A DNA stretch of 64,000 bases from Planctomycetota bacterium. GTDB taxonomy: Bacteria > Planctomycetota > Phycisphaerae > Phycisphaerales > Phycisphaeraceae. Each line of letters opens with the position of its first letter. Position 1 is the first letter of the stretch. Position numbers and translations under genes: made by a program. The stretch is taken from assembly GCA_039025855.1 (NCBI GenBank), contig JBCCNL010000001.1:106988-170987 (forward strand). The letters are read 5' to 3'. Positions 9,855 through 54,535 of this stretch are shown here, in pieces. The notes under the pieces are model-generated. The model was given only the letters and a program-made list of their open reading frames with translations. It was not told the DNA's origin and ran no database searches.

Positions 9855-12800
9855 ATGTTGCGGGCTAGACATCCCACGAAGCGGTTCAACGCTCAGCCGA
9901 GGAGAGAAGGCCCCATGTCGTCGCCCCCCAAACGCCACGCCCTCACGCCACCCGTAAACGCGCCGCTCATCGAATCCCTGGAGCCCAGGGTCCTCCTCTC
10001 GGCGACCCCGTCGGGAGCCACCCCCGCCTTCACCGACAACCTCCCCTGGGCCGAGACCTTCGAGTCGCTGCCCAACGGCACCGACGTCGACACCGGCGAC
10101 ACCGCCTGGTCCATCGATCGTTCCAACGCCCGACCGACCGCGCTCATCGCCGTCAGCAACGGCGCCTTCCGCGCCCAAGGCACCGGCGGCGAAGCCGTCT
10201 GGTGTTCGGATACCCTCGACATCTCGCAGCGCACCGGCGTCGACCTCTCACTCGATCTCGACGGCGCCGGCACCCTCGAAAACGCCGGTGATTTCCTCGA
10301 CTACCTCCGCGTCTACGCCGTCATCGACGGCGGCCCCGAACAGCTACTCGCCGAACGCGTCGGTAACATCAACAACGGCCAACCCGAAACCCTCACCGTT
10401 AACGGCCTCGCAGGCTCCACCCTCCAGATCGTCATCCGCACCCTTACCACAGGCGCCACCGAAGCGTACCTCTGGGACAACCTCACCCTCACACCCAACC
10501 CAGACGACCCGCCACCGCCGCCGCCACCCCCGACCGGCGACGAACTGCCGTGGACCGAGACCTTTGGCGGGCTGCCCAACGGCACCACCACAGACACCGG
10601 TACCACGGCATGGACCACCGACGGGTCGAACCTCGGCGGATCAGCACAAGTCGGCGTCAGCAACGGCACCTTCCGTGCCCAAGGCACCGGCGGCGAAGCC
10701 GTCTGGCTTTCTGAAACCCTCGACATCTCGCAGCGCACCGGCGTCGATCTCTCCCTCGACCTCGACGGTGCCGGCACCCTCGAAAACGCAGGCGATTTCC
10801 TCGACTACCTCCGCGTCTACGCCATTATCGACGGCGGCCCCGAACAGCTCCTCGCCGAACGCCTCGGCAACGTCAACAACGGCCAACCCGAAACCCTCAC
10901 CGTCAACGACCTCGCGGGCTCCACCCTCCAGATCGTCATCCGCACCCTCACCACAGGCTCCACTGAAGCCTACCTCTGGGACAACCTCACCCTCACACCC
11001 AACCCGGACGACCCGCCGCCGCCACCACCCAACAACGACCCGATCGCCAACAACGACTCGGCCACCGTCAACGAAAACGGCTCCATCCTCATCCCCGTCC
11101 TCAGCAACGACACCGACCCCGACAACGACACCCTCGCCATCACCGGCGTCACCGTCGACCCCACCCAGGGCCAGGCCACCGTCGAGGGCAATGCGATCCG
11201 CTACACCCCAGACACCGACACCAACGGCAGCGACACCTTCACCTACGCCATCAGCGACGGTAATGGCGGCAACGCCTCCGCCACGGTCGCCCTCACCATC
11301 ACACCTGCACCGCCACCGCCGCCGCCACCGCCACCCAGCGGCCTGCCGTGGAGCGAAACCTTCGCCGGGCTCCCCAACGGCACCACTACCGACACCGGCG
11401 ACACCGCCTGGTCCGTCGACGATTCGCAGGCCGGCGGCGGCGCCACCATCGGCGTCGATGGCGGCTGGTTCGCCGTCCGCAACACCGATGGCTTGGTGAC
11501 CTGGAGCAGCGAGGTCATCGACTTCGGCGGCGCCGCCACCGTCGACCTCACCTTGGACATCCAAGGCCTCGGCGGCCTCGATAGCTCCGGCCGATTCGCC
11601 GACGCGCTCCGCGTCTACACCCGCGTCGACGGCGGCCCCGAAACGCTCATCGCCGAACGCCTCGGCCGATTCAACAGCAGCAACCCGCAGACCCTCACCG
11701 TCGACGGCATCACCGGCTCCAGCCTGCAGGTCATCGTCCGCGCTTCCAACACCGCCAACAACGAGACCTACCGCTGGGACAACCTCACCGTCACCACCGT
11801 CGTCCCGCCGCCCCCGCCCGACCCACAGCCGGGCACCCTCGCCCTGGCCAGCAGCCAGTTCGCGGTCAATGAAGACGCCGGCGTCGTCACCATCGGCGTG
11901 ACCCGCACCGGCGGCAGCGACGGCGTGGTCTCCATCGACTACCTCACCGCCGAGGGCTCCGCCACCGCCGGCGACGACTTCACCCCTGTCAGCGGCACCC
12001 TCGTCTTCGCCGACGGCCAGACCTTCGCCAGCTTCGACGTGCCCATCCTGCAGGACACCGACTTCGAGACCGAAGAGACCTTCGCCGTCTCGCTCAACCG
12101 CGTCGGCGGCGAGGCCAACCTCGCCCAGCCCCGCACCGCCACCGTCACCCTCGCCGACGACGACACCGACACACCCACCCCCGGCACCGGCGACGGGCTC
12201 GCCGCCGTCTACTTCGATCAGCTCGGGTTCGCCGGCCCGTCCGTCACCCGTATCGATCCCGACGTCAACTTCGACTGGGCCTCCGGCTCACCCGACCCCG
12301 CGATCGGCAACAACACCTTCTCCGCCCGCTGGACCGGCCAGATCGAAGCCCTCTACTCCGAACGCTACACCTTCACCACCACGGCCGACGACGGCATCCG
12401 CCTCTGGGTCGACGACCAGCTCATCATCGACCGCTGGAACGACCAGACGGCCACCAGCTTCACCGGCACCATCGACCTCACCGCAGGCCAACGCGTCAAC
12501 CTCCGCCTCGAGTACTACGAGAACGGCGGCGCCGCCGTCGCCCAACTCGCCTGGCAGAGCGCCTCCCAAGCCTTCGAAATCGTCCCCACAAGCCAGCTCT
12601 ACAGCACCGGCTACACCGGCGATGTCGATCCGCCCACCAGCCTCAACCTCTCCGCCGAAACCATCATCACCGGGCTCAACCAGCCCACCGCCCTCTCCTT
12701 CCTCCCCAACGGCACCGCCCTCGTCGCCCAGAAGAACGGCGTCGTCCGGGCCTACCAGAACGGCCAACTCCTCAGCACCCCCTTCATCGACCTCAGCGAA

Positions 12801-13886
12801 GAGGTCAACGGCGTCCGTGACCGCGGCCTGCTCGGGCTCGCCGTCCACCCCGACTTCGACAACAACCCCTACGTCTACCTCCTCTACACCTACGACCCGC
12901 CCGAAACCCAAGGCCAGGCCGGCTTCGCCGGGCCCGACGGCCGCGGCTCCCGTGTCTCCCGGCTCCTCCGCGTCACCGCCGACCCCGCCACCGACTTCGC
13001 CACCGCCATCGCCAACTCCGGCGTCGTCATCCTCGGCACCAACAGCACCTACGAGAACATCGGCGCGCCCGACCGCGGCCAGTCCATCAACAACCCCTAC
13101 GGTGGCCTCGACGAAAACGGCAACTACATCCAGGACGTCCTGCCCATCGACTCGGAGTCCCACACCATCGGCGGACTCGCCTTCCTCCCCGACGGCTCGC
13201 TCATCGTCTCCAGCGGCGACGGCACCTCCTACGGCGCGGTCGACCCTCAGTCCTCACGCGTCCAGGACCTCGACTCGCTCAACGGCAAGATCCTCCGCAT
13301 CGACCCCATCACCGGCGACGGGCTGGCCGACAACCCCTTCTACACCGGCGACCCCGACGCCAACGCCTCCAAGGTCTGGGCCCTGGGCTTCCGCAACCCC
13401 TTCCGCATCGCCGTCAACCCCACCAACGGCAAGCTCTACGTCGGCGACGTCGGCTGGACCCGATGGGAAGAGGTCAACGAGGTCGTCCGCGGCGGCAACT
13501 ACGGCTGGCCCTGGTTCGAGGGCGGCAACGGTGCCCCGATCCAGACCAACGGCTACCGCGACCTCCAGGACGCCCAGGACTTCTACGCCGCCGGCACCCC
13601 CGTCGAGCCCTCGCTCTTCGCCCGCTCTCATTCCGACGGCGGCGTGGCCGTCGTCGTCGGCGATGTCTACACCGGCACCGTCTACGACAGCAGCTACGAC
13701 AACGCCCTGTTCTTCACCGACTACGGCACAGGTGCGATCGAAGCCCTGGTCTTCGACGATGCCGGCGGACTCGTCGGCGTCAACACCGTCACCGACCGCA
13801 TCGGCGTCGTCGTCGAAATGACCATGGGCCCCGACGGCACCATGTGGTACGTCGACATCACCGGCAGCGTCGGTCGGCTCGTGTAA
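9855..13886 (+). CDS. Large secreted multidomain protein: three copies of an unassigned ~165-aa module, a cadherin-like/VCBS-type segment, Calx-beta, PA14, and a PQQ-type glucose/sorbosone dehydrogenase beta-propeller
   Basis: N-terminal LIESLEPRVLLSA motif. Modules follow LPW.ETF..LPNGT..DTG.TAW...YLWDNLT, separated by poly-Pro linkers. Cadherin-like segment: NNDSATVNENGSILIPVLSNDTDPDNDTL. Calx-beta: VVSIDYLTAEGSATAGDDFTPVSGTLVFADGQT. PA14: FSARWTGQIEALYSERYTFTTTADDGIRLWVDDQLIIDRW. SGDH: LNQPTALSFLPNGTALVAQKNGVVRAY...RGLLGLAVHPDF. An alternative start is the ATG at 9915. Confidence 0.85.
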   Translation: MLRARHPTKRFNAQPRREGPMSSPPKRHALTPPVNAPLIESLEPRVLLSATPSGATPAFTDNLPWAETFESLPNGTDVDTGDTAWSIDRSNARPTALIAVSNGAFRAQGTGGEAVWCSDTLDISQRTGVDLSLDLDGAGTLENAGDFLDYLRVYAVIDGGPEQLLAERVGNINNGQPETLTVNGLAGSTLQIVIRTLTTGATEAYLWDNLTLTPNPDDPPPPPPPPTGDELPWTETFGGLPNGTTTDTGTTAWTTDGSNLGGSAQVGVSNGTFRAQGTGGEAVWLSETLDISQRTGVDLSLDLDGAGTLENAGDFLDYLRVYAIIDGGPEQLLAERLGNVNNGQPETLTVNDLAGSTLQIVIRTLTTGSTEAYLWDNLTLTPNPDDPPPPPPNNDPIANNDSATVNENGSILIPVLSNDTDPDNDTLAITGVTVDPTQGQATVEGNAIRYTPDTDTNGSDTFTYAISDGNGGNASATVALTITPAPPPPPPPPPSGLPWSETFAGLPNGTTTDTGDTAWSVDDSQAGGGATIGVDGGWFAVRNTDGLVTWSSEVIDFGGAATVDLTLDIQGLGGLDSSGRFADALRVYTRVDGGPETLIAERLGRFNSSNPQTLTVDGITGSSLQVIVRASNTANNETYRWDNLTVTTVVPPPPPDPQPGTLALASSQFAVNEDAGVVTIGVTRTGGSDGVVSIDYLTAEGSATAGDDFTPVSGTLVFADGQTFASFDVPILQDTDFETEETFAVSLNRVGGEANLAQPRTATVTLADDDTDTPTPGTGDGLAAVYFDQLGFAGPSVTRIDPDVNFDWASGSPDPAIGNNTFSARWTGQIEALYSERYTFTTTADDGIRLWVDDQLIIDRWNDQTATSFTGTIDLTAGQRVNLRLEYYENGGAAVAQLAWQSASQAFEIVPTSQLYSTGYTGDVDPPTSLNLSAETIITGLNQPTALSFLPNGTALVAQKNGVVRAYQNGQLLSTPFIDLSEEVNGVRDRGLLGLAVHPDFDNNPYVYLLYTYDPPETQGQAGFAGPDGRGSRVSRLLRVTADPATDFATAIANSGVVILGTNSTYENIGAPDRGQSINNPYGGLDENGNYIQDVLPIDSESHTIGGLAFLPDGSLIVSSGDGTSYGAVDPQSSRVQDLDSLNGKILRIDPITGDGLADNPFYTGDPDANASKVWALGFRNPFRIAVNPTNGKLYVGDVGWTRWEEVNEVVRGGNYGWPWFEGGNGAPIQTNGYRDLQDAQDFYAAGTPVEPSLFARSHSDGGVAVVVGDVYTGTVYDSSYDNALFFTDYGTGAIEALVFDDAGGLVGVNTVTDRIGVVVEMTMGPDGTMWYVDITGSVGRLV
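10041..11030 (+). repeat. Intragenic tandem duplication, period 504 bp (168 codons), two highly similar copies; a third divergent copy starts at about 11343
   Basis: Copy 1 starts at ctcccctgggccgagacc (10041) and copy 2 at ctgccgtggaccgagacc (10545). Long stretches are identical between copies, for example ggcaccggcggcgaagccgtctgg...ctcgacatctcgcagcgcaccggcgtcga...gatttcctcgactacctccgcgtctacgcc. Confidence 0.85.
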
Positions 13887-42715: not shown

Positions 42716-44794
42716 TCAGAAACTCAACCGCTCCGCGTGCTCTTCATCGCGCACCAACACCTGCCGCCGCTGGTGCGTCGCCATGCGTCCCGCCCGACGC
42801 TGCGCCGCCCGGAACAGCCACCCCAACACCCACCCCGGTAGACGCACCGGCACCGACTTCAACAGCCGCCGACGCACCGGCGTGAACTTCACCAGCAGCG
42901 GATCGTCCAGGCTCGTGATCACCGTCGCCGTCCCCGGCTCGCCCTGCCGTGCGCTGCGACCTTCAAGCTGCCGATCTACCCGGCGTGACTCGTGACGATC
43001 CGTCGCAATCACCGCCAGCCCGCCCCGCTCGACCACGCCCTCAGGCAGCTTGATGTCCGTCCCCCGACCCGCCATGTTCGTCGCCACCGTCACCCGCCCC
43101 AGCTGCCCCGCCTCCGCGACAATCGCCGCCTCCTGCTCGTGCAGGTGCGCGTTTAGCACCGCATGCGGAACGCCCGCGCCCGTCAGCCGAACGCTCAGGC
43201 TCTGGCTGTCATCCACACTCCGCGTGCCCACCAGCACGGGCCGACCCGCAGCGTGCATTTCCCTCGTCAGCTCTGTCACCGCGTCCCACTTGGCATCCAA
43301 CGTCGGCAGCGGCCGAACAGTCTGGGTCTCGCGGCGGCATACCCGGTGCGTCGGGATCCGCACCGTCTGCATCCGATAGGTCCGCCAAAGCTCCGCCCGT
43401 TCTCCCCACGCGGTCCCGGTCATCCCGCTCAGCCGGCGGTACAGCCGGAAGAACCGCTGGAAGCTGATCGCCGCCAGCGTGTGGTTCAGGTCGCTGACCT
43501 CCAGGCCCTCCTTCGACTCGACCGCCTGGTGCAGCCCCGCCTGCCACGTGCGGTCGGGCATCAGCCGGCCCGTGCTCTCGTCCACAATCACCACCTTGCC
43601 ATCCTGCACCACGTACTGGTCGTCGCGCAGATACAGGTACTGCGCCACCAACGCCTGATACACCCGCTCTTCCAGGCGACGCACCGGGCTACGGTCCGCA
43701 TCGCCTCTCGAACCCACCAACCGCTTGATGTGTTGCCGACCCGCCTGCGTCAGGCGCAGGTCCCGGTGCCGCCGATCCAGCCGGAAGTCGCGGTCGGGCT
43801 GCAGCCGCGCCGCCAACGCCGTGGCGTCCCGATACGTGAACTCCCGGGCGTCGCCGCCCGGTGCCGTATCCGCCTTCGGCCCCGAAATAATCAACGGCGT
43901 CGTCGACTCATCAAGCAAGATCGAGTCGGCCTCGTCAATGATCGCCGCCTCACCGCGGAAGAACCGGCCCTGCGACCGCGTCGACTCACCCGTCAGGTTC
44001 CGGGCCAGAACCGAAGCGAGCGGCATCGACGCACGATCGGTCTGCGCCTGTTCCTGCAGCAGGTCACGCAGGTAGTCCGCGGCCGCCTCCTTGTGCGTCG
44101 TGTACGTGATGTCGGCCGCATACGCGCTGCCCCGATCGTGAGGCGGCGTGCCACCCGTGATGTAAGCCACGCGCAGCCCCGCGCCGCCAAACAACGGCTT
44201 GGCCCACTGGGCGTCCCGTTTAGCCAGGTAGTCGTTCACGGTGAAGACGTGACAACCCCGGCCGTGCCACCCGACCAGGCAGGCGGCCAGCGCCGCCACC
44301 AGCGTCTTGCCCTCGCCCGTCGCCATCTCCGTCATCCGGCCATCCAGCAACGCCGCGGCCGCCGCGACCTGCACGCGGTACGCATTGAGCCCCAGGGTCC
44401 GCCGCGCCGCCTCCCGGATCAGCGCGAGCGCTTCAACCCGCTGCTCGACCGTGACCGACCCTCGCCGAAACACCGCACGCTGCTCCGCCAGCCGCCCGCT
44501 CAACGCATCGATGTGCAACTCCCTGCACACCGCCTCCTGCGCGAGCACGCGGTCCGCCAAACGCAGATAACGACGCACCGAACACCGCCCCGCAACCAGG
44601 TGCGACGCGACCCACTCGTACACCGCATCGGCATGCCGACGCGGCTTCGCCGGCTGCCGGTTATGCGATCGGCTCCGCCACGCCTCCCCATCACGCCACA
44701 GCTTCGCCAGCGCCGGCGTCTGCAACTCACCCGGCCGCGCTACGCCCACGGGCTGGTTCGGGTCAGACGGGAACAGCGTGGTCAGGCTCGACAT
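42716..44794 (-). CDS. SecA-like DEAD-motor ATPase lacking the canonical SecA C-terminal scaffold, wing and CTL domains
   Basis: Colinear with the SecA NBD1-PPXD-NBD2 region: TEMATGEGKTLVAALAA (about 44298-44326), HVFTVNDYLAKRDAQW, AIIDEADSILLDESTTPLIISGP, NMAGRGTDIKL, GGLAVIATDRHESRRVDRQLEGRSARQGEPG. Only about 50 aa follow NBD2. The ATG at 44794 shares 1 nt with the upstream stop (TGATG). The track start is 44881. Confidence 0.8.
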   Translation of the reverse strand: MSSLTTLFPSDPNQPVGVARPGELQTPALAKLWRDGEAWRSRSHNRQPAKPRRHADAVYEWVASHLVAGRCSVRRYLRLADRVLAQEAVCRELHIDALSGRLAEQRAVFRRGSVTVEQRVEALALIREAARRTLGLNAYRVQVAAAAALLDGRMTEMATGEGKTLVAALAACLVGWHGRGCHVFTVNDYLAKRDAQWAKPLFGGAGLRVAYITGGTPPHDRGSAYAADITYTTHKEAAADYLRDLLQEQAQTDRASMPLASVLARNLTGESTRSQGRFFRGEAAIIDEADSILLDESTTPLIISGPKADTAPGGDAREFTYRDATALAARLQPDRDFRLDRRHRDLRLTQAGRQHIKRLVGSRGDADRSPVRRLEERVYQALVAQYLYLRDDQYVVQDGKVVIVDESTGRLMPDRTWQAGLHQAVESKEGLEVSDLNHTLAAISFQRFFRLYRRLSGMTGTAWGERAELWRTYRMQTVRIPTHRVCRRETQTVRPLPTLDAKWDAVTELTREMHAAGRPVLVGTRSVDDSQSLSVRLTGAGVPHAVLNAHLHEQEAAIVAEAGQLGRVTVATNMAGRGTDIKLPEGVVERGGLAVIATDRHESRRVDRQLEGRSARQGEPGTATVITSLDDPLLVKFTPVRRRLLKSVPVRLPGWVLGWLFRAAQRRAGRMATHQRRQVLVRDEEHAERLSF

Positions 44795-47031
44795 CAGAGA
44801 CTCAGCCCCAGCGGGGACGCGTTCGGATCGCCCGGCACCTGGAACCGCCGCTGCAACACCTGCCGCGCCGAGCGGTACCACTGCTGCAGCAGCGGCTTGT
44901 CCGGCAGGCTGAAACGCACCACCACCGTCTGCCCGTGCTGCATCGCCCAGGCGACCTGCTCCGCATCCGCCGCCTCACCCAGCTCGGGTTCGATCACGAT
45001 CTCGAAGTACGGCTCGGCCGCGGTCGTCCCCTGCGGGTCCGTCGGGTCGGTCGCGATCTGCCCCCCCGCCGCCTCCGACAACGCCGCCGAAGGCAGCCGA
45101 CGCTGACCCGCGGGCATCGCCTGCACCACCCGGCCCGAAAAACCACGGTCGGGCTGATCGGTCGGACGCACCTCCACCCGGTGATCCGCCTGCAACAAAC
45201 GCGGCCCCTCAAACTGATCCGCCGCCACCCGCACCGTCAGCCGACCCGTCTCCGCCAACACGCCAACCGGTTCACCCCGCCGCACATAGTGCCCCTGCAC
45301 ATCGTCATCCAGTGCCGGCGTCCACGTCCCCGCGAATCCCGCCGTCATCACCAGCGACGCCCGCCGCTCCCGCGCCTTCGCCAGAAGGTCCCGTGTCGCC
45401 GCCAGCTGCTCCGCAATCACCTGCCGCTGGATCGGCTCCTCCACCACCGCCCGGCGATACCGCGCTTCCAGCAACGCCTGCCGCGCCTCCAGCTCCAACA
45501 CCTCCGCGTCCAGCCGGGGGTTCGCCGCCGACACCAGCACCCCCCCCGCCGACACCTCCGCATCCGACCCCGCGATCGATTCCACAAACCCCTCCGCCTC
45601 GGCATGCACCGTCACCAGCCGTGCCGGCTCCAACACCCCCAGCGCCCTCGGCCGGTCCGGCACCGGCACCCACCCCAACACCAGCAACGGCCCGCCGATC
45701 ATCAACACCGTCGCCAGCACCGCCCGCCCACGCACCCGCGCCGGCTCCGGCGACGCGCTCAGGTAATGCACCAGCTTGATCGACGGGATCACCAGATACC
45801 CCACCAACGCCAAGATCACAAAGATCGCCCCAATGAAGAACAGCTTGTCCGCCACAAACATGATGATCACCACGCCAAGGAACAGCCGGTACGCCAACGA
45901 CGCCAGCCCGAACACCACAAACCAGAAGCGCTCCTTGAGGTTCCCACCCGCCGCCGGATTGATCAGCTGCCGCACCCCGTAGACATACCGCCGGATTAGG
46001 TACGTCATGTACTGCTGCGCACGCTGATACAGGTTCGGCGTCTCGATGACATCGGACAGGATGTAGTAACCATCAAACTTGATCAGTGGGTTCGCGTTGA
46101 ACAGGATCGTCGACACACCAGCGATGAAGATCAGGTTGTAAGCCAACGCGTGGGCCAGCGTCCCGTCCGCCGTCTGCGACCAGACCACCGCCGCCACCGC
46201 CGCCACCGCGAGCTCGGCATACATCCCCGCCGCCCCCACAAACGCCCGCTGCCATTTGCTCGGAAGCGTCCACGCACTCGTCGCATCGACATACGGCACC
46301 GGCGTCAACACCATCAGCATGATCCCCACCGTGTGCACCTCGCCCTGCCCGTGACGCCGACGCCCGAACCGCTTGCACGCAAACGCATGCCCCAACTCGT
46401 GCAGCAGCTTGATCCCCACCAGACACACGTAAAGCCAAATCAAGTTCTGCGGCGCAAGCACATTCCCCGTCTGCGCCCACAGCTCATCAAACCGCCCCAG
46501 CAACGACCACCCACCCAGCACCAGCAGCCCGGCCCACAGCACCCAGCCCACCGGCCCAAACAACCAGGCCACCGCCGGCAGCCAACGATTCAAAAACCGG
46601 TCCGGGTCCCAGATCGGCACCCGCGCAAACAACAGGTTCTTGAGATACCCACCCACCTCCTTGCGGATCCGCTTCTGCCGCCGTTCAAACATCCGCCCCG
46701 CGTCCGGTGACAGCTCGTGGTCCAACAAGTTGCTCGTGTGCAGCTGCCCGATCAGCCGCAGCGCCTCGCCCTGTGTTGGCGCCTCGTCCTCGAGCTGTTC
46801 CTGTACCGCTTCCCACGCGTCCTGGATGCTCCGACGCCCGTCGAGCAGCCCGACAAACCGATACCCCGCTGCGCTCAGCCGGAAGTGCTGGTTGTTCGAC
46901 GGGTCCATCACCACGTACCACTGCCTACCGCGATATTGCTGACGACCGCACTGCACCGTCGAGCGCAGCCTCGGCTTCGTCTCCGCAATGCGGTGCCAGG
47001 AGTCGTCGTAGGTCGGCCGTTCAAACGCCAA
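44794..47031 (-). CDS. Fusion protein: PqqD-like (RRE-like) N-terminal domain, M50 (site-2-protease-type) membrane metalloprotease, C-terminal HlyD-type adaptor
   Basis: N-terminus: FRLSAAGYRFVGLLDGRRSIQDAWEAVQEQLEDEAPTQGEALRLIGQLHTSNLL (PqqD-like pattern). HExxH in a TM helix: IKLLHELGHAFACKRFG (about 46381-46401). C-terminus: barrel-sandwich, coiled-coil hairpin and beta-barrel MFP pattern (LVTVHAEAEGFVESI...VLELEARQALLEARYRRA...). Confidence 0.75.
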   Translation of the reverse strand: MAFERPTYDDSWHRIAETKPRLRSTVQCGRQQYRGRQWYVVMDPSNNQHFRLSAAGYRFVGLLDGRRSIQDAWEAVQEQLEDEAPTQGEALRLIGQLHTSNLLDHELSPDAGRMFERRQKRIRKEVGGYLKNLLFARVPIWDPDRFLNRWLPAVAWLFGPVGWVLWAGLLVLGGWSLLGRFDELWAQTGNVLAPQNLIWLYVCLVGIKLLHELGHAFACKRFGRRRHGQGEVHTVGIMLMVLTPVPYVDATSAWTLPSKWQRAFVGAAGMYAELAVAAVAAVVWSQTADGTLAHALAYNLIFIAGVSTILFNANPLIKFDGYYILSDVIETPNLYQRAQQYMTYLIRRYVYGVRQLINPAAGGNLKERFWFVVFGLASLAYRLFLGVVIIMFVADKLFFIGAIFVILALVGYLVIPSIKLVHYLSASPEPARVRGRAVLATVLMIGGPLLVLGWVPVPDRPRALGVLEPARLVTVHAEAEGFVESIAGSDAEVSAGGVLVSAANPRLDAEVLELEARQALLEARYRRAVVEEPIQRQVIAEQLAATRDLLAKARERRASLVMTAGFAGTWTPALDDDVQGHYVRRGEPVGVLAETGRLTVRVAADQFEGPRLLQADHRVEVRPTDQPDRGFSGRVVQAMPAGQRRLPSAALSEAAGGQIATDPTDPQGTTAAEPYFEIVIEPELGEAADAEQVAWAMQHGQTVVVRFSLPDKPLLQQWYRSARQVLQRRFQVPGDPNASPLGLSL

Positions 47032-47057
47032 TGCAGAACCTCAATCGTCAATCGGCG

Positions 47058-49073
47058 TCAGAGCCAGAGCTGCATCCGCACCCAGTTCACCGCGTCCCGC
47101 GTCCACAACCAGAGGTGGCTCGACTCGCCCGCATCCAGCCGGGCCGCGCCCGTCATCCCCGGCCGAAGCCAGACCGGCTGACGGTCCAGCTCCACCTCCG
47201 CCGCGAACACGTTCCGCCCCTCGTGCACCTTCGCCTGAGGCTCGATCGACCGCACCGTGAAGCCCACCCGCTGATCCGGGTAACTCGTCGTCGCCAGCTC
47301 GCCCCGCATCCCCAGCGTCACCTCTCCCGCCCGGTCCTCCGGGATATAAAGCTCCGCCCGCAGCGCCTCCACGGGCGCGACCTCAAAGAGCGTGTCGCCC
47401 TCCGTCACCGCCTTCCCGATCTCACGCTTCAGGTCGCCCGCCATCACCATCCCGCCCAGCGACGACCGCAGTGCCGCCATCTCGATCTGCCGTTCAATCA
47501 AGCGGCGCTTCGCCGCCGTCGCCTCCGCCTCCGCCATCGACACCTGAACGCCCGACATGTCCGACTCCCGCCGCGCCGCCTCCGCCTGCTTCCGCTGCGC
47601 CGTCTCCTGCGCCCAGAGCTCCGCCGCCTGCAACCGGAGCTCCGCCGTATCCAGCTCCGCCAACACCGTCGCCCCCGCCTGCACCGCATCGCCCGGCCCA
47701 ACATGCACCGACTTCAGATACCCCGCGAACGGCGCCGTCACCAGCTGCCGCTGCGTCGCCTCAATCACAAAGCTCGACTCCACATGGTCCGTCCCCTTGC
47801 CCAGCGTCAACCACAGCACCAACGCCAAGAGCCCGACCGCTGCGACCTTCGCCCAGGTGTACTGCGTGCCCAGCGCTTTGCCGAGCACCCGTGTGCTCCC
47901 GTCCTTGAGCCGACCCCCCACCCAACGGTCACGCTGCCGCAGCGGCACCAGCAACGGCGTCGCCAACTCACCAATCAACCGCAACCGCGTCAACCGCTGC
48001 GCCGTCTCCGCGGCGTCCTTCGGCAGCTCGTTCCACTCCAGCGTCAGCACCGCCACCACCCCGCCCTCCCGTCCCTGCTCCGACTCGCCGCTCACCTCGC
48101 CCTTCGCCCCGCCCACGTGACGCAGCGGAAGCGACACCGCACACGCCGAGCCGTGCTGCTTCGTCAACGCCTGATGGTCTCGGCTCACCACCGGCACCTC
48201 GGGCGGCGCGGGCCACACCACCTCGATGTCCTGATCCAGACACTCGTGCATCGCCGACTCCAGGTCCTGCACCAGCTTCATCCGCCGGTTCAGCCGCTCG
48301 GTCCGGCTCATCGCGATCAGCTTGAGCGCCTCCCGCTGCGGCTCCACCCAACCCAGGCTCACCCGCTCCGCCCCGTGCCGCGACGCCAGCTCGTTGCACA
48401 ACCCCATGGCCGCCTCACGGAACCGCCGACAACGCCCCAGCGCCGCCAAGACATCCACCGATTCCGTCAGCCGATCGATCCCGCCCTGCTTCTGGTGCAG
48501 CTGCGCCCGCGCGTCATACGCCCCGAGCAACCCAAGCGTCAGCTCCACCTGCTGCGCCGCCCGATCCACCTCGCCCCGCGACACGCCCTGAAGCCCCAGC
48601 GCCACCATGAACCGTCCTTCCCCGCCATCCAACCCGACCGACTGCGGCAGGCCCAACAACACCAAGAACTGCTCACTCGCCGACTCCGGCGGCGCAGTCG
48701 TTGCGGTCGCATTCTCAGCCGGGACGGACTGACGGATCCCCATCACCACCGGCGTCGACCGCGCAAACACCCGCTCCGCCTGCTCCGCCGCGAACCGCAC
48801 CCAGGGCGGTGGCAACCGATCCGGGTGCGGGTTGTAGTCCGCCACCACCGCCGGCCCGGACTGCGGCATAAACCGGATCACCACCCCGTGGTCCGCGCCC
48901 GTCAGCCGGCCCTGAAGCGTCACCAACCGCTGCAGGAACTCCGGAGCCGGGCCATCGAACCGCGCCAGCATCTCCACGACCGTCGGCCGCTTCGCGTCGG
49001 CCGCCGGCTGCTGCCCCAAGCCCCCACCCGACAGCCCCGCACCACCCGAAGAAGATCGACCTGATTCATCCAT
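47058..49073 (-). CDS. HlyD-family adaptor with large cytoplasmic N-terminal region (two GAF-like modules), one TM helix and a periplasmic MFP domain
   Basis: TM helix KVAAVGLLALVLWLTLG. The MFP part reads LVTAPFAGYLKSVHVGPGDAVQAGATVLAELDTAELRLQAAELWAQE...GMTGAARLDAG. Calling the N-terminal ~330 aa GAF-like is a pattern-level, low-certainty call. Confidence 0.65.
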   Translation of the reverse strand: MDESGRSSSGGAGLSGGGLGQQPAADAKRPTVVEMLARFDGPAPEFLQRLVTLQGRLTGADHGVVIRFMPQSGPAVVADYNPHPDRLPPPWVRFAAEQAERVFARSTPVVMGIRQSVPAENATATTAPPESASEQFLVLLGLPQSVGLDGGEGRFMVALGLQGVSRGEVDRAAQQVELTLGLLGAYDARAQLHQKQGGIDRLTESVDVLAALGRCRRFREAAMGLCNELASRHGAERVSLGWVEPQREALKLIAMSRTERLNRRMKLVQDLESAMHECLDQDIEVVWPAPPEVPVVSRDHQALTKQHGSACAVSLPLRHVGGAKGEVSGESEQGREGGVVAVLTLEWNELPKDAAETAQRLTRLRLIGELATPLLVPLRQRDRWVGGRLKDGSTRVLGKALGTQYTWAKVAAVGLLALVLWLTLGKGTDHVESSFVIEATQRQLVTAPFAGYLKSVHVGPGDAVQAGATVLAELDTAELRLQAAELWAQETAQRKQAEAARRESDMSGVQVSMAEAEATAAKRRLIERQIEMAALRSSLGGMVMAGDLKREIGKAVTEGDTLFEVAPVEALRAELYIPEDRAGEVTLGMRGELATTSYPDQRVGFTVRSIEPQAKVHEGRNVFAAEVELDRQPVWLRPGMTGAARLDAGESSHLWLWTRDAVNWVRMQLWL

Positions 49074-49085
49074 CGCCGATCCTTT

Positions 49086-49952
49086 TCAATTCGCCACCGC
49101 CGTCGGCTCCGCGTCCGCTTCCTGAACCAAAGCCTCCGCCTCCCGCGGCAGCCACACCAGGAACCCAGCCGGCAGCGACAGGTCGCTGTTGTCAATCGCA
49201 AACACACACCGGAACGTCTGACTCGCCGGGTCGATCATCGGGTCCACCCACTTCAGCTCCGCCCGCAAGCCCCGCCCCACCGGTGCCCCCGCCTGCAGCT
49301 CGTACCGCTGACCCACCTCCATCTGCCCGTACCGCGCGACCGGCAAAAACAGCTCGGCCTTGAGTTCCGTCAACGACGCAAACACCGCCACCGGATCGCC
49401 CTGGTCCACCGTCGCACCCGGCTGCGCCTCCAGCTTCATCACCCGCCCATCGAACGGCGCCTTCAGTGCAAACCGTTCCAGACGCGCCTGCTCCAGATCA
49501 AACTGCAGCGCCGCCGCATCACGATCCTGCTTCGCGATCGCCAGGTCGATCTTCGAGAGCTCCAGCTGCACCCGAGCCTGACGGACCTCCCAGTCCGTCC
49601 CCGCGTCCTGCTTCACCATGTCCTTCGCCTGCTCCAGCCGGAGCTGCAACTCGTTGACCGCCTCGACCGCACGACGCACCGACAGGTCGCTCTCCGACCG
49701 CATCTGCGCCAACGCCACCGCCTCCGCCTGACCCCGATCCGCCAGCCTTGCGATCAACTCACCCGCCGACCGGGCCTCGCCCTCCGCCGCCAACTCACCC
49801 GGGATCACCTGGCCCACCGCCTCGGCCCGCAGCACCACGTACCGCGTCGGCTTCACGATGCCTTGATCCAGCATCGCGTCCTGCGCCGCCACAACACCCG
49901 CAGCACCAACGCTCACAAACGCAAAAATTGACCGTTTCAGGAGTTCTTTCAC
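49086..49952 (-). CDS. HlyD-family periplasmic adaptor (membrane fusion protein), signal-peptide form
   Basis: Signal peptide MKELLKRSIFAFVSVGAAGVVAAQD, a coiled-coil hairpin, and RFALKAPFDGRVMKLEAQPGATVDQGDPVAVF. Confidence 0.75.
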   Translation of the reverse strand: MKELLKRSIFAFVSVGAAGVVAAQDAMLDQGIVKPTRYVVLRAEAVGQVIPGELAAEGEARSAGELIARLADRGQAEAVALAQMRSESDLSVRRAVEAVNELQLRLEQAKDMVKQDAGTDWEVRQARVQLELSKIDLAIAKQDRDAAALQFDLEQARLERFALKAPFDGRVMKLEAQPGATVDQGDPVAVFASLTELKAELFLPVARYGQMEVGQRYELQAGAPVGRGLRAELKWVDPMIDPASQTFRCVFAIDNSDLSLPAGFLVWLPREAEALVQEADAEPTAVAN

Positions 49953-50056: not shown

Positions 50057-50199
50057 AACCGTTAACGAGTCTTCGAAAACCCGCCGCAGGGGCGATAAAC
50101 CACGCCCGGATCAAGGCCAGTCCCGCCCCGCTCCGACGCCCCATCAAATGGGCCGCTCGTGGTTGTTTCCGTCCCAACGGCCGATTATTGTTAACGGTT
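50057..50199. promoter_or_regulatory. 10-bp inverted repeat pair AACCGTTAAC (50057-50066) and GTTAACGGTT (50190-50199) in a divergent intergenic region
   Basis: Read directly. Both arms contain the AT-rich palindrome GTTAAC (the first is CGTTAACG), which is conspicuous in GC-rich DNA. The second arm abuts a TTGACA hexamer (50198-50203). Confidence 0.25.
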
Positions 50200-50376
50200 G
50201 ACAATCATCGCGACGATCCAGTCCCCCAAGCACGCGGCCCCTCGTTGTTTTCACCTCGTCGTGACACGGACCGCCAGGACGCACCGCTCACCCAGCGCGC
50301 CGCTCAGCCCGGCGACCAACCCCGCCATCTCCCCGCCGACTCCCCCCGCTCCTCCCGTCTCCAGAAAGCCCACGCC

Positions 50377-52053
50377 ATGAAGACCCCCACGCCGCTGCTT
50401 CTGATCCTGCTCCTGGCAATGACCAGCCTCGCCTGCACCGGCCCCAGCCCCACCGCCAAGGCCGACGGCCACAACCCGCCCGCACCCCCCAACATCATCT
50501 TCATCATCACCGATGACCAGGAGCGCCGAGAGCTCGGCTTCCTCGAAAACCAATCCCACACCCCCCACCTCGACGCCCTCGCCGCAGGCGGCACCTACTT
50601 CAGCAACTGCTACGTCAACTCCAGCGTCTGCACCCCCAGCCGCTACGGCGTCATGACCGGCCAATACGCCAGCCGAAGCGAAACCGACTTCTTCAAGCGG
50701 CACACCAGCGCAGAGGGCGTCACCCAGGTCGTCTGGAACCCCGGCCTCATGCCCGACCAGCCCACCCTCCCCTCGGTCCTCAAAGAAGCCGGCTACGCCA
50801 CCGGCTTCGTCGGCAAGTGGCACATCGGCAGCCTCAAACGCGCCCCGGGCCCCAAGCTCGAGCAAGGCGCCGACCCCGCCGACCAGGCCACCATCGCCCG
50901 CCTCAAAGCCAACCAAGCCTCCTTCGCCGAAGACCTCCGCACCAAAGGCTTCGACTTCGCCGACGCCATCTACTCCGGCAACCCCGACGACGACCAGGAA
51001 CTCAAACGCGTCGGCCTCAACGTCCACCACCAGGAGTGGGTCACCCGCGGCGGCCTCAATTTCATCGATCAGTCCGTCGCCCAGGACAAGCCCTTTTTCC
51101 TCTACTTCTCGACCACGCTCACCCACGTCCCCAAGCCGCTCGAATCCCTCAAGCTCGACCCCCGCGTCTCACCCATCGGCATGCTCGACGCACCCATCGA
51201 AGGCGTCCAACCCTCCCGCGCCGACGTCATCGCCCGCGGCCAACAACTCGGCATCCCCGAAGAACTCTGGGGCTCGATGTGGCTTGACGACGGTATCGGC
51301 GCCCTCACCGCCAAGCTCCGCGAACATGGCATCGAAGACAACACCCTCATCGTCTACTTCGTCGATCACGGCATGGAGTTCCGCAGCAAAGGCACCTCCT
51401 ATCAAGGCGGCCTCATCTCCCCAACCCTCTTCTTCTGGCCCGGCCAAGTCCCCGCGGGCAAGACCCAGGACGCCCTGATCCAGAACATCGACTTCGCCCC
51501 CACCTTCCTCGAACTCGCCGGTGCCACCCCGCCCGCAAGCATGGTGATCGACGGTAAGTCGCTCGTCGAACTCATCCGCGGCAGCGACGCCCCCGTCCGC
51601 AAGTCCGTCTTCAGCGAGCTCGGCCTCACCCGCACCGTCGTCACCGCCGACGGCTGGAAGTACCTCGCCTTCCACGTCCCGCCCAGCCTCCAACGCACGA
51701 CCGAAGAGCGTCTGGCCGACCACAAAAAGCGCCTCAGTGAGATCCACACCAAACACCCGTGGACCCGCAACAACCCGCACTACGCGCTCGACCCCGAAGC
51801 CAAGTACTTCCAGCTCGGCATGGCCGCCGGCGGCAACGTCTTCGAGCGCAACCAGCTCGCCGGCAATGTGCCTTTCCGAGCCCACTACTTCGACGCGCAT
51901 CAGCTCTTCAACCTCAACGCCGACCCGGACGAGACGACCAACCTCGCGGACGACCCGAAATACGCCGACAAGCTCGCCGAGATGCAGGCCGAGCTCACGG
52001 TCTACCTCGACAGCCTCCCCGGCACGTACGGCGACCTCAAGCCCAGCGAGTAA
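50377..52053 (+). CDS. Secreted sulfatase (formylglycine-dependent, S1 family)
   Basis: Signal/lipoprotein-like MKTPTPLLLILLLAMTSLACTG. NIIFIITDDQ. Active-site motif SSVCTPSRYGVMTG (CxPxR). The track ORF starts at 50188; I prefer the ATG at 50377. Confidence 0.85.
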   Translation: MKTPTPLLLILLLAMTSLACTGPSPTAKADGHNPPAPPNIIFIITDDQERRELGFLENQSHTPHLDALAAGGTYFSNCYVNSSVCTPSRYGVMTGQYASRSETDFFKRHTSAEGVTQVVWNPGLMPDQPTLPSVLKEAGYATGFVGKWHIGSLKRAPGPKLEQGADPADQATIARLKANQASFAEDLRTKGFDFADAIYSGNPDDDQELKRVGLNVHHQEWVTRGGLNFIDQSVAQDKPFFLYFSTTLTHVPKPLESLKLDPRVSPIGMLDAPIEGVQPSRADVIARGQQLGIPEELWGSMWLDDGIGALTAKLREHGIEDNTLIVYFVDHGMEFRSKGTSYQGGLISPTLFFWPGQVPAGKTQDALIQNIDFAPTFLELAGATPPASMVIDGKSLVELIRGSDAPVRKSVFSELGLTRTVVTADGWKYLAFHVPPSLQRTTEERLADHKKRLSEIHTKHPWTRNNPHYALDPEAKYFQLGMAAGGNVFERNQLAGNVPFRAHYFDAHQLFNLNADPDETTNLADDPKYADKLAEMQAELTVYLDSLPGTYGDLKPSE

Positions 52054-52068
52054 TCACCGAGACCTCTC

Positions 52069-52986
52069 ATGCCCATCGCCTCACGCCCTGTCACCCAAGC
52101 GGTCTGCATTTTCATTATGGCTCTAACCTCTTCCTTCACGTCCGGCTGCGCCGGCGACGGCTCGCCCACCACGGGCCCGTTCCTCTTGCCCGGAACCGAC
52201 ACCGACGCCGAGGCCCTGCGCTGGTCCCCGGTTGACAACATGTCCGACGAGTTCGACGGCAACACCGTCGACGCCACCAAGTGGCAGACCGAGCCCTTCG
52301 AGAACGGCTGGGTCTGGATCGGCCGACCTCCCGGGCTGTTCAAATCCGAAAACATCAGCGTCGCCGACGGCTCACTCAACGTCACCGTCAGCGGCCTGCC
52401 GGAAACGTTCGAGAAGAACGGCCGGACCTACGACTACCAGGGCGGCATCGTCCGCTCCCTCCACGCCGGACAGCCCGGCTGGTACTACGAGACCCGCATG
52501 AAGGCCAACGCGACCGTCATGTCCTCCACCTTCTGGCTCATGACCTCGAACCGATCGGCCAGCAAGAAGAAGCTCGAGCTCGACATCCAGGAGTGCGTCG
52601 GGCTCACCACCGACCTCACCTTCGACTGGGCCCGCACCTGGGACCAGATCTACCACTCCAACATGATCCACCGCGTCAACCAGTACAACCCAGAGCCGGT
52701 GCAGCACCAGAAATCCGTCCCCACGGAGACCAAGAACCACGAGCGCTACTACGTCTACGCCGCCTGGTGGAAGTCACCCGAAGAAGTCCGGTTCTACCTC
52801 GACGGGGCCTACGTCTACTCCATCACCCCACCGATCACCTGGGACGTCCCCGCCTTCCTCCAGATGGCCATCGAGACCTACGACTGGAACCCCGTCCCCG
52901 AGGACGGCGGGCTGATCACCACCGGCACGCTCGACCAACGCACCACCCGCTACGACTGGGTTCGCGTCTGGAAACCCGAACAGTAG
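52069..52986 (+). CDS. Glycoside hydrolase family 16 (agarase/porphyranase/carrageenase-type)
   Basis: GH16 catalytic motif ExDxxE present as KKLELDIQECVG. Lipoprotein-like signal ...IMALTSSFTSGC. Beta-jelly-roll pattern WVWIGRPPGLFKSENISVADGSLNVTV. Confidence 0.75.
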   Translation: MPIASRPVTQAVCIFIMALTSSFTSGCAGDGSPTTGPFLLPGTDTDAEALRWSPVDNMSDEFDGNTVDATKWQTEPFENGWVWIGRPPGLFKSENISVADGSLNVTVSGLPETFEKNGRTYDYQGGIVRSLHAGQPGWYYETRMKANATVMSSTFWLMTSNRSASKKKLELDIQECVGLTTDLTFDWARTWDQIYHSNMIHRVNQYNPEPVQHQKSVPTETKNHERYYVYAAWWKSPEEVRFYLDGAYVYSITPPITWDVPAFLQMAIETYDWNPVPEDGGLITTGTLDQRTTRYDWVRVWKPEQ

Positions 52987-54500: not shown

Positions 54501-54535
54501 ACCACCCCACCCAGCACCGAACCAGGAACCGCGCC

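What the first reader, a model, noticed from the sequence alone, without database searches (positions are those of the whole stretch)
42716..49952. Operon of three HlyD-type adaptors, an M50 protease and a truncated SecA-like motor: candidate non-canonical peptide processing and export system
Four tightly packed minus-strand genes have gaps of 12 bp and 26 bp, and the last junction is a 1-nt overlap. In transcription order they are:
1. A signal-peptide MFP.
2. A GAF-like, TM, MFP protein.
3. A PqqD-like, M50 protease, MFP fusion.
4. A SecA-like ATPase.

Classical MFP systems pair the adaptor with an ABC, RND or MFS transporter and a TolC-like channel. None of those is encoded here. The only energy-transducing component is a SecA-derived DEAD motor, and the only polytopic membrane core is the M50 protease. 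My inference is an envelope-spanning apparatus in which a peptide or protein substrate is recognised by the PqqD-like domain, cleaved within the membrane by the M50 module, and driven by the SecA-like ATPase. No precursor-peptide gene is evident nearby. I do not know of a characterised system with this composition.
Basis: partly seen in the sequence, partly recalled or inferred. Interest (0 to 1): 0.8.

Follow-up and report, generated by a model that had tools for sequence, protein, structure and literature searches.

The report
SecA-like, M50, triple-adaptor export operon
This four-gene operon is a real member of a widespread gene module first described by computer analysis in 2015 and still untested in the laboratory. 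It looks like an envelope-spanning exporter driven by a cut-down SecA motor, and comparison with relatives suggests its cargo is giant surface proteins that carry an N-terminal "LEPR-XLL" leader.

Summary
Four tightly packed minus-strand genes encode:
- A, a small signal-peptide adaptor (MFP).
- B, tandem GAF domains, one TM helix and an MFP domain.
- C, a PqqD/RRE domain, an M50 protease and an MFP domain.
- D, a SecA-like protein with NBD1, PPXD and NBD2 but no scaffold, wing or two-helix finger.

The module is not new. Kamneva, Poudel & Ward (PLoS One 2015, PMC4452313) described "secondary SecA_DEAD" proteins co-encoded with these same partners and proposed a type-I-like secretion role. I found no experimental follow-up.

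My comparison of 82 genome loci and 7 annotated plasmid regions shows:
- B-C-D order is conserved across about 10 phyla: D follows C in 71 of 79 testable loci, and B precedes C in 75 of 77.
- A is adjacent in at least 48 loci.
- A TolC-like gene is adjacent in 14 loci.
- A DUF3467 gene sits directly upstream of B in 22 loci.
- No ABC or RND partner is conserved.

New leads: giant (1 to 13 kaa) RTX/cadherin-type proteins with the LEPR-XLL leader (NCBIfam NF012209) abut the module in many loci, and 5 of 7 plasmid regions have one directly upstream. C's N-terminal domain has the fold of leader-binding RRE proteins.

The best model is a SecA-like-powered, TolC-dependent exporter of giant LEPR-XLL proteins that removes the leader with M50. 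The mechanism is inferred, not shown.

The parts
49086..49952 (-). Gene A: small periplasmic membrane-fusion (adaptor) protein, 288 aa, with an N-terminal signal or anchor.
   Evidence: Pfam HlyD_3 1.1e-17 and HlyD_D23 2.6e-13. NCBIfam RND_mfp 88 bits, below its cut-off of 94.9. Hydrophobic N-terminus at residues 4-22. A-like genes lie next to the module in at least 48 of 82 related loci.
47058..49073 (-). Gene B: cytoplasmic tandem GAF-like domains, one TM helix, then a periplasmic MFP domain; 671 aa.
   Evidence: HlyD_3 4.2e-15. Most homologues carry GAF family hits PF01590, PF13185 and PF13492. The AF2 model has pLDDT 86.7, with alpha/beta modules at 30-178 and 218-350, a long helix at 354-401, a TM helix at 406-424 and an alpha-hairpin at 477-532. 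Foldseek matches to MacA, EmrA and AcrA reach E 1e-14. B lies upstream of C in 75 of 77 testable loci.
44794..47031 (-). Gene C: N-terminal PqqD/RRE leader-binding domain, polytopic M50 (site-2-type) metalloprotease core, then a periplasmic MFP domain; 745 aa.
42716..44794 (-). Gene D: truncated SecA-like ATPase (NBD1, PPXD, NBD2 and only the first part of the scaffold helix); 692 aa, no TM segment.
   Evidence: SecA_DEAD 2e-83, SecA_PP_bind 2e-28, P-loop_SecA 1e-51, and no SecA_SW match. It scores below every NCBIfam SecA and SecA2 cut-off. It aligns to B. subtilis SecA residues 15-553 with the Walker A, DEAD-like and arginine-finger motifs intact. All 120 closest homologues are 608-715 aa and lack PF07516. 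D follows C in 71 of 79 testable loci.
9915..13886 (+). Tentative cargo encoded in trans: a large exoprotein with an N-terminal LEPR-XLL leader ('LIESLEPRVLLSATP'), about 29 kb from the operon.
   Evidence: NCBIfam NF012209 LEPR-8K scores 26.2 bits against a cut-off of 17. Pfam finds cadherin-like/Big_9, Calx-beta, PA14 and a GSDH propeller. The link to the operon rests only on what is seen in related loci. Nothing in this window shows it, and such proteins may be common in this genome.

Best explanation
**What it is**
The operon is a member of the 'secondary SecA_DEAD' module of Kamneva et al. 2015. It is most likely a type-I-like exporter that spans the envelope and depends on TolC. The usual ABC transporter is replaced by two proteins: C (RRE, M50 protease, MFP) and D (a SecA-derived ATPase).

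**Proposed cycle (every step inferred)**
1. The cargo is very large repetitive exoproteins. They have a short N-terminal leader: a basic stretch followed by [F/L]E-x-LE-x-R-x-LLSA, the 'LEPR-XLL' motif. They lack a Sec-type hydrophobic core.
2. The cytoplasmic RRE domain of C binds that leader.
3. D clamps the unfolded chain with its PPXD domain and feeds it N-terminus-first using ATP. Lacking the wing, two-helix finger and C-terminal tail, D presumably docks on the cytoplasmic parts of C and B rather than on SecYEG.
4. The chain crosses the inner membrane at the polytopic M50 core of C, presumably an oligomer, and the M50 site removes the leader.
5. The MFP domains of C, B and A build the periplasmic duct to a TolC-like channel, which is encoded elsewhere in this genome.
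6. The tandem GAF domains of B gate the system in response to a small ligand.
7. In many relatives a DUF3467 protein (absent from this window) acts as an accessory factor, perhaps a cargo chaperone.

**Shown versus inferred**
- Shown: the domain folds, the intact motifs, the conserved gene order, and the adjacency of giant LEPR-XLL genes and TolC in relatives.
- Inferred: every physical interaction and the direction of transport.
For: **Module identity**
- Domains, motifs and folds.
- Published description of the same module.

**Conservation in 82 genome loci**
- The loci come from Planctomycetota, Verrucomicrobiota, Lentisphaerota, Nitrospirota, Methylomirabilota/Rokubacteria, Alpha/Beta/Gammaproteobacteria, Desulfobacterota, Myxococcota, Acidobacteriota and Bacteroidota.
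- D follows C in 71 of 79 loci with room, and B precedes C in 75 of 77.
- An A-like MFP is adjacent in at least 48 loci.
- A TolC-like OEP gene is adjacent in 14 loci.
- DUF3467 is present in 23 of 64 loci with enough upstream sequence and lies directly upstream of B in 22 of them.
- No ABC or RND cluster is conserved.

**Cargo link in the genome loci**
- 19 of 51 loci with at least 4 kb upstream have a co-directional ORF of at least 700 aa, often more than 2000 aa, just upstream.
- These ORFs carry RTX, Calx-beta, cadherin, He_PIG, PKD, dockerin and Golvesin_C domains.
- The LEPR-XLL motif occurs in large ORFs in 16 loci, and its positions cluster at the module borders (KS p=3.6e-5).
- NF012209 scores above its cut-off in 7 of the 9 candidate leaders submitted to NCBIfam.

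**Independent annotated plasmids**
- Six of seven regions have a giant gene (4 to 12.9 kaa) immediately upstream and co-directional. Five of those carry LEPR-XLL.
- Methylosinus sp. C49 has the full array: giant gene, DUF3467, B, C, D, A, TolC.

**Accessory status of D**
- Among the C-bearing plasmids and chromids listed in full, 12 of 13 also carry D next to C.
- Kamneva et al. report canonical SecA in the same genomes.

**Related precedent**
- Truncated SecA domains embedded in giant Omnitrophota proteins have been proposed to serve their export.
Against: - There are no experimental data for any member. In M. extorquens only the GAF gene was seen expressed.
- This window has no TolC gene, no DUF3467 gene and no adjacent giant gene. 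Its one LEPR-XLL gene is 29 kb away.
- One LEPR-XLL gene per 64 kb suggests such genes may be common in this genome, so proximity here means little.
- M50 proteases are not known to form protein-conducting pores.
- D is missing next to C in 8 loci with room and in the Thalassospira plasmid cluster.
- The Alisedimentitalea giant shows no LEPR motif in its annotated first 100 residues.
- ORFs in the loci were called with a crude longest-ORF rule.
- Giant genes that run off the loci have unknown N-termini.
Confidence: 0.6

Rival explanations
1. RiPP-type system, the reader's own flavour: a small ribosomal precursor peptide is bound by the PqqD domain, trimmed by M50 and exported as a mature peptide.
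For: C's first roughly 420 residues resemble the daptide RiPP intramembrane protease (NCBIfam NF041824, 177 bits) and YydH/LiaK proteases. The RRE fold matches lasso-peptide B1 proteins.
Against: - The daptide model score is below its 300-bit cut-off.
- No precursor-like small ORF is found upstream in the window.
- No modifying enzymes are conserved in 82 loci.
- The only conserved small gene, DUF3467, has a conserved roughly 90-aa domain rather than a leader/core layout.
- Giant LEPR-XLL genes, not peptides, are the recurrent neighbours.
Confidence: 0.08
2. Processing or release system rather than a translocon. The giant proteins cross the inner membrane by another route. B, C and A with TolC handle only the periplasmic and outer-membrane step, or M50 cuts an N-terminal LEPR-XLL anchor to release or mature surface adhesins. 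D then acts as an unfoldase or feeder for the protease.
For: - M50 enzymes are known as intramembrane proteases, not pores (one search matches RseP, S2P and SpoIVFB).
- Kamneva et al. also note that the ATPase cannot form a pore.
- GGDEF-EAL and PAS-kinase genes recur near the module in 6-7 loci, as they do for regulated adhesin release.
Against: - LEPR-XLL leaders lack a hydrophobic stretch long enough for Sec targeting or membrane anchoring (sequences).
- No alternative exporter is conserved nearby.
- D keeps the polypeptide clamp (PPXD) of a translocation motor.
Confidence: 0.2
3. Small-molecule efflux or another non-protein transport by a tripartite MFP-TolC pump, regulated by the GAF domains.
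For: All three MFP domains resemble the drug and metal efflux adaptors MacA, MexA, AcrA and ZneB.
Against: No RND, ABC or MFS permease is present or conserved. A preprotein-binding SecA motor, a peptide-binding RRE and a protease all point to polypeptide substrates.
Confidence: 0.05
4. D is simply the housekeeping SecA of this organism, and the neighbourhood is coincidental.
For: Some databases name homologues 'preprotein translocase subunit SecA'.
Against: - D lacks the scaffold, wing and two-helix-finger regions and scores below all SecA and SecA2 cut-offs.
- The whole family is uniformly truncated.
- It sits on accessory plasmids in Alphaproteobacteria.
- Kamneva et al. found canonical SecA alongside it.
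- Gene order with B and C is conserved across phyla.
Confidence: 0.02

Closest known systems
'Secondary SecA_DEAD domain protein' module (Kamneva, Poudel & Ward 2015, PLoS One 10:e0129066; PMC4452313)
   Same: Same four protein types: a SecA_DEAD/PP_bind protein without the wing-scaffold domain, a Peptidase_M50-HlyD protein, a GAF-HlyD protein and a HlyD/biotin-lipoyl protein. An OEP gene is sometimes adjacent. The phyla overlap, and the authors proposed the same T1SS-like idea, with SecA_DEAD as the ATPase and M50 as a possible pore.
   Different: That paper does not mention the PqqD/RRE domain, DUF3467, RTX or adhesin neighbours, or the LEPR-XLL leader. The window adds a Phycisphaerae-type MAG member with gene order A-B-C-D and no adjacent TolC or cargo.
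Classical type I secretion of giant RTX adhesins (HlyB-HlyD-TolC type; established knowledge)
   Same: An MFP plus a TolC duct, with no periplasmic intermediate expected. The cargo class is alike: multi-kiloresidue RTX, cadherin and Ig-repeat proteins encoded next to the exporter.
   Different: There is no ABC transporter. There are three different MFP-domain proteins instead of one. The candidate signal is N-terminal rather than C-terminal. A SecA-derived ATPase and an M50 protease take the inner-membrane role.
Peptidase-containing ABC transporters for leader-bearing bacteriocins (C39 peptidase + ABC + MFP; established knowledge)
   Same: The logic is alike: recognise an N-terminal leader, cleave it, and export through an MFP-linked route in one machine.
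   Different: Leader recognition is by an RRE, cleavage is by an intramembrane metalloprotease, and energy comes from a SecA-like motor. The cargo is thousands of residues long rather than tens.
SecA2 accessory ATPases of Gram-positive bacteria and Actinobacteria
   Same: A second SecA paralogue dedicated to a subset of exported proteins. Kamneva et al. place the clade near actinobacterial SecA2.
   Different: SecA2 proteins keep the scaffold and wing and work with SecYEG or SecY2. D scores below the SecA2 model cut-offs and is linked to MFP and M50 partners instead.
RRE-dependent RiPP proteases (NCBIfam daptide_HExxH NF041824; YydH/LiaK NF058609)
   Same: A PqqD-like RRE fused to an M50-type HExxH membrane protease.
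   Different: Scores are below the family cut-offs. C has an added C-terminal MFP domain. There is no precursor peptide and no tailoring enzymes.
Truncated SecA domains inside giant Omnitrophota and Actinobacteria proteins (bioRxiv 10.1101/2023.11.21.568195)
   Same: SecA_DEAD and PP_bind without the scaffold-wing domain, associated with giant surface proteins and proposed to serve their export.
   Different: There the motor is embedded in the giant protein itself. Here it is a separate 692-aa protein in an operon with M50 and MFP partners.

Membership tests
Secondary SecA_DEAD / T1SS-like module (Kamneva et al. 2015) | SecA_DEAD + SecA_PP_bind protein that has lost the wing-scaffold (SecA_SW) domain | tested here: met
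   Pfam hits and no PF07516. The alignment to B. subtilis SecA stops at residue 553. All 120 homologues lack PF07516.
Secondary SecA_DEAD / T1SS-like module (Kamneva et al. 2015) | Adjacent Peptidase_M50 protein with an HlyD-type domain | tested here: met
Secondary SecA_DEAD / T1SS-like module (Kamneva et al. 2015) | Adjacent GAF + HlyD/biotin-lipoyl protein | tested here: met
   Gene B: HlyD_3, GAF families in its homologues, and two GAF-like modules in the AF2 model. GAF is not detected by Pfam in the window protein itself.
Secondary SecA_DEAD / T1SS-like module (Kamneva et al. 2015) | Separate small HlyD/biotin-lipoyl protein | tested here: met
   Gene A. A-like genes lie next to the module in at least 48 loci.
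Secondary SecA_DEAD / T1SS-like module (Kamneva et al. 2015) | A canonical full-length SecA elsewhere in the same genome | not testable with these tools
   Only 64 kb of this MAG is available. The point is supported indirectly by plasmid-borne copies and by the paper.
Classical type I secretion system | ABC transporter as the inner-membrane energiser | tested here: not met
   No ABC gene lies in or beside the operon, and none is conserved in 82 loci.
Classical type I secretion system | Membrane fusion protein | tested here: met
   There are three MFP domains, in A, B and C.
Classical type I secretion system | TolC-family outer-membrane factor | tested here: inconclusive
   None was found among the genes annotated around the operon, and the rest of the 64-kb window was not scanned for OEP genes. 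One is adjacent in 14 genome loci and in the Methylosinus and Thalassospira plasmids.
Canonical SecA / SecA2 translocase ATPase | Helical scaffold, helical wing and two-helix finger (SecA_SW), with a score above the family cut-off | tested here: not met
   No SecA_SW match. Best NCBIfam SecA score is 557 against a cut-off of 814, and SecA2 models score 395-487 against cut-offs of 725-1100.
Site-2 protease (Peptidase M50) | HExxH in a TM helix plus the NxxPxxxxDG third zinc-ligand motif, and the S2P core fold | tested here: met
RiPP biosynthetic cluster with an RRE-M50 protease (daptide / epipeptide type) | Score above the NCBIfam cut-off, plus a precursor peptide and tailoring enzymes nearby | tested here: not met
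   NF041824 scores 176.9 bits against 300, and NF058609 scores 29.6 against 225. There is no precursor ORF and no tailoring genes.
Known anti-phage defence systems (PADLOC) | Match to any PADLOC model | tested here: not met
   No hits for A, B, C or D.

The most novel reading that the evidence does not exclude
The module is a distinct secretion pathway dedicated to giant (1 to 13 kaa) exoproteins and widespread across about 10 bacterial phyla. An N-terminal LEPR-XLL leader would be read by an RRE domain and cut by an intramembrane M50 protease. The chain would be driven by a SecA-derived motor that works without SecYEG, through a three-adaptor duct to TolC. DUF3467 would act as a dedicated accessory factor. 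This would give a function to the orphan LEPR-XLL signal and to DUF3467. It would also be the first case of a SecA motor and an RRE domain recruited into a type-I-like machine.
Probability: 0.5. Interest if true: 0.85.

Novelty: new member of a known kind. Interest (0 to 1): 0.55.

Why it matters
- **Scale.** The C family alone has more than 4000 clusters at 50% identity. It occurs in cultivable rhizobia, methanotrophs and roseobacters as well as in Planctomycetes.
- **Knowledge gap.** Within the searchable library, nothing beyond the 2015 computational paper was found on it.
- **If the cargo link holds.** It would explain how bacteria export some of their largest proteins, the 8-13 kaa 'LEPR-XLL domain-containing proteins'. 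It would assign roles to DUF3467 and to the truncated SecA paralogues. It would also show a new way to energise a TolC-linked duct.
- **Annotation.** Current database names for D ('prepilin peptidase', 'DEAD/DEAH box helicase', 'SecA') and for C ('PqqD family peptide modification chaperone') are misleading.

Tried and rejected
- **DUF3467 as a SecB-like chaperone.** A profile search against PDB sequences found nothing meaningful.
- **Anti-phage defence system.** No PADLOC hits for A, B, C or D.
- **The DUF3686/AAA genes (30918-41436, + strand) that lie beyond the 3' end of D as part of the system.** They have no homologues in any related locus and only weak PADLOC hits.
- **A small precursor ORF upstream of A.** Only short, unconserved ORFs are present.
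- **Promoter and terminator definition.** No sigma-70-type promoter passed the scan, and terminator-like sites did not exceed the shuffled expectation. By eye, a TTGACA-N17-CTGAAT sits at 50032-50004 on the minus strand, but it is weak.
- **Literature.** Searches for follow-up work used combinations of SecA, M50, HlyD, PqqD, GAF, 'SecA-like' and LEPR-XLL. They returned only the 2015 paper and incidental mentions.
- **Direct check for a canonical secA in this MAG.** Not possible with 64 kb of sequence.


Full report
**1. The observation**

The window is about 67% G+C. Its proteins are identical to entries from a Planctomycetota MAG (P0001 and P0121). Four minus-strand ORFs occupy 42716-49952:
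- A: 49086-49952, 288 aa.
- B: 47058-49073, 671 aa.
- C: 44794-47031, 745 aa.
- D: 42716-44794, 692 aa.

The A/B gap is 12 nt and the B/C gap is 26 nt. The C/D junction is TGATG, a 1-nt overlap.

**2. The four proteins**

*A* is a small membrane-fusion protein (HlyD_3 1e-17) with a hydrophobic N-terminus.

*B* carries an HlyD_3 domain and one TM helix.
- Pfam does not detect GAF in the window protein itself, but most of its 120 closest homologues carry GAF family hits.
- The AF2 model (pLDDT 86.7) shows two alpha/beta modules at 30-178 and 218-350, a long helix, a TM helix at 406-424, and then lipoyl, alpha-hairpin and beta-barrel MFP domains.
- The MFP part matches MacA, EmrA and AcrA.

*C* matches PqqD and Peptidase_M50 just above their Pfam cut-offs.
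- HExxH (211-215) and NPLxxxDG (314-321) are invariant in 65 homologues.
- The third 'HlyD-type adaptor' is therefore real, although the Pfam HlyD_3 hit was sub-threshold.

*D* has SecA_DEAD, SecA_PP_bind and P-loop_SecA but no SecA_SW.
- It aligns to B. subtilis SecA residues 15-553, with the Walker A (MATGEGKT), DEAD-like (DEADS) and arginine-finger (GRSARQG) motifs intact.
- By eye, its last roughly 50 residues resemble only the start of the long scaffold helix.
- It has no TM segment.
- It scores below every NCBIfam SecA and SecA2 cut-off.

**3. Conservation**
- The C family is large: 4112 clusters at 50% identity with E<=1e-30, and the top 150 are nearly all full-length proteins of about 720 aa.
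- A scan of one genome per GTDB species found more than 560 loci. The 80 kept, plus two loci from complete genomes, span about ten phyla.
- By tblastn with the window proteins, D follows C in 71 of 79 loci with room, and B precedes C in 75 of 77.
- An A-like small MFP lies directly before B (or before DUF3467) or directly after D in at least 48 loci.
- Clustering all other ORFs found no conserved ABC, RND or MFS gene. It did find a TolC-like OEP gene in 14 loci.
- A small DUF3467 protein (PF11950) is present in 23 of 64 loci with enough sequence and lies directly upstream of B in 22 of them. The window has no DUF3467 gene.

The genes are co-conserved, and no ABC or RND partner is consistently adjacent.

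**4. Prior knowledge**

A full-text search found Kamneva, Poudel & Ward 2015 (PMC4452313).
- They described 'secondary SecA_DEAD domain proteins' that have lost the wing-scaffold domain.
- These proteins are not related to the canonical SecA of the same genomes.
- They are co-encoded with Peptidase_M50/HlyD, GAF/HlyD and HlyD/biotin-lipoyl proteins, and sometimes with OEP.
- They proposed a T1SS-like function, with SecA_DEAD as the ATPase and M50 as a possible pore.
- They found only the GAF gene expressed in M. extorquens AM1.

I found no later work on the module. The window's operon is therefore a new member of a module already described in silico. The paper does not mention PqqD, DUF3467, RTX, adhesins or cadherins.

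**5. A cargo lead from the genome loci**
- In 19 of 51 loci with at least 4 kb upstream, a co-directional ORF of at least 700 aa, often more than 2000 aa and running off the locus, ends just before DUF3467 or B.
- Pfam shows RTX repeats, Calx-beta, cadherin-like, Big_9, He_PIG, PKD, dockerin/cohesin, Golvesin_C, and calpain or M10 protease domains. This is typical giant exoprotein content.
- Where N-termini are visible, they share a basic stretch followed by [F/L]E-x-LE-x-R-x-LLSA. NCBIfam calls this NF012209, 'LEPR-XLL domain-containing protein'.
- A regular-expression scan found the motif in large ORFs in 16 of 82 loci. Most sit immediately downstream of D, immediately upstream and co-directional, or divergent from the first module gene.
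- Their positions within the flanks are strongly skewed toward the module border: median 0.15 of the flank, KS p=3.6e-5.
- These leaders have no Sec-type hydrophobic core (sequences).

**6. Independent confirmation from annotated plasmids**

A tblastn search with C against PLSDB found 22 records with near-full-length matches. I read seven regions:

| Organism | Upstream giant gene | Gene order |
|---|---|---|
| Pseudosulfitobacter sp. DSM 107133 | 38.8 kb, annotated LEPR-XLL | giant, B, C, SapC, D, A |
| Pontibrevibacter nitratireducens | 31.8 kb, annotated LEPR-XLL | giant, DUF3467, B, C, D, A |
| Methylosinus sp. C49 | 26.5 kb, N-terminus FDTLEPRVLLNAD (NF012209 30.6 bits) | giant, DUF3467, B, C, D, A, TolC |
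| Mesorhizobium ciceri R30 | 31.6 kb, N-terminus FEALEPRLLLSAD (NF012209 35.5 bits) | giant, DUF3467, A, B, C, D |
| Thalassospira marina | 12.1 kb, annotated LEPR-XLL | giant, DUF3467, B, C, A, TolC (no D in the cluster) |
| Alisedimentitalea scapharcae | 24.4 kb 'calcium-binding protein', no motif in the annotated first 100 aa | giant, B, C, D |
| Pseudohalocynthiibacter aestuariivivens | 7.6 kb upstream carries no listed gene | DUF3467, B, C, D |

The best plasmid matches to D are the same records that carry C. D is thus an accessory, often plasmid-borne paralogue and not a housekeeping SecA. A preprint on giant Omnitrophota proteins reports SecA_DEAD/PP_bind domains without scaffold-wing embedded in giant surface proteins. 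That is a parallel link between truncated SecA motors and giant cargo.

**7. The window in this light**
- The window has no adjacent giant gene, no TolC gene and no DUF3467 gene.
- It does encode one LEPR-XLL protein at about 9915-13886 on the + strand: NF012209 26.2 bits, with cadherin-like, Calx-beta, PA14 and GSDH propeller domains. This lies 29 kb from the operon.
- It is a plausible cargo encoded in trans. One such gene in 64 kb also warns that LEPR-XLL proteins may be numerous in this genome, so proximity here carries no weight.

**8. Most likely mechanism (inferred)**
1. C's cytoplasmic RRE binds the LEPR-XLL leader.
2. D clamps and pushes the unfolded chain with ATP. It probably docks on the cytoplasmic parts of C and B, because it lacks the elements canonical SecA uses with SecY, SecB and ribosomes.
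3. The chain crosses at an oligomeric M50 core, and the leader is cut.
4. The MFP domains of C, B and A connect to TolC.
5. B's tandem GAF domains regulate the system.
6. DUF3467, where present, assists.

I put about 0.6 on this overall picture and about 0.95 on membership of the 2015 module.

Rivals:
- A processing or release machine that does not itself translocate (0.2).
- A RiPP peptide exporter (0.08).
- Small-molecule efflux (0.05).
- Housekeeping SecA (0.02).

Weak points are the lack of any experiment, the untested assumption that an M50 core can conduct a polypeptide, the loci where D is absent, and my crude ORF calling.

**9. Verdict**

The module is a known, computationally described kind, and this operon is a new member of it. 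Interest is moderate to high. The system is widespread and uncharacterised, and the cargo/leader link found here makes it directly testable in cultivable bacteria.

Noticed in passing
window 9915-13886 (+): A large exoprotein with an N-terminal LEPR-XLL leader (NF012209, 26.2 bits) plus cadherin-like/Big_9, Calx-beta, PA14 and GSDH beta-propeller domains. It is a possible cargo of the operon encoded in trans.
   Followed up: partly
L004, L010, L012, L028, L048, L054, L058, L079, L082 and others (e.g. L012:1455-1838); plasmid loci L085, L086, L087, L091, L092: A small DUF3467 (PF11950) protein is encoded immediately upstream of gene B in 22 genome loci and in 5 of 7 plasmid regions. It has no solved relative, no literature and no detectable similarity to SecB. 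It is absent from this window.
   Followed up: partly
window 30918-41436 (+): A four-gene block: a 713-aa protein with no Pfam hit, an 1848-aa DUF3686 + DUF7902 + AAA protein, a 273-aa protein with no Pfam hit, and a 605-aa AAA protein. PADLOC hits are weak only (IetA-like 1e-7, LmuB/JetC-like about 1e-3). It is not conserved next to the module in relatives. It may be an uncharacterised ATPase or defence-like system.
   Followed up: partly
window 50188-57418: A polysaccharide-degradation neighbourhood of sulfatase, alpha-L-fucosidase and GH2 genes, typical of Planctomycetota and Verrucomicrobiota.
   Followed up: no
L084 (Pseudosulfitobacter plasmid) 17236-18057: A SapC family protein is inserted between C and D in this one module.
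   Followed up: no
L091 (Thalassospira marina pCSC3H3); also genome loci L015, L019, L021, L022, L027, L042, L053, L057: The modules here lack an adjacent SecA-like gene. The Thalassospira cluster otherwise runs LEPR-XLL protein, DUF3467, B, C, A, TolC. The ATPase may be encoded elsewhere, or these variants may use another motor.
   Followed up: partly
L020:344-2125, L048:17738-20032, L071:8643-11117, L039:8760-11045, L030:18596-21055 and others: REC-GGDEF-EAL and PAS histidine-kinase genes recur near the module in 6-7 loci. This hints at second-messenger control, which may be relevant to the GAF domains of B.
   Followed up: no
Database names of D homologues: The truncated SecA family is variously annotated as 'prepilin peptidase', 'DEAD/DEAH box helicase', 'helicase-related protein', 'hypothetical protein' or 'preprotein translocase subunit SecA'. 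No dedicated family model appears to exist.
   Followed up: no
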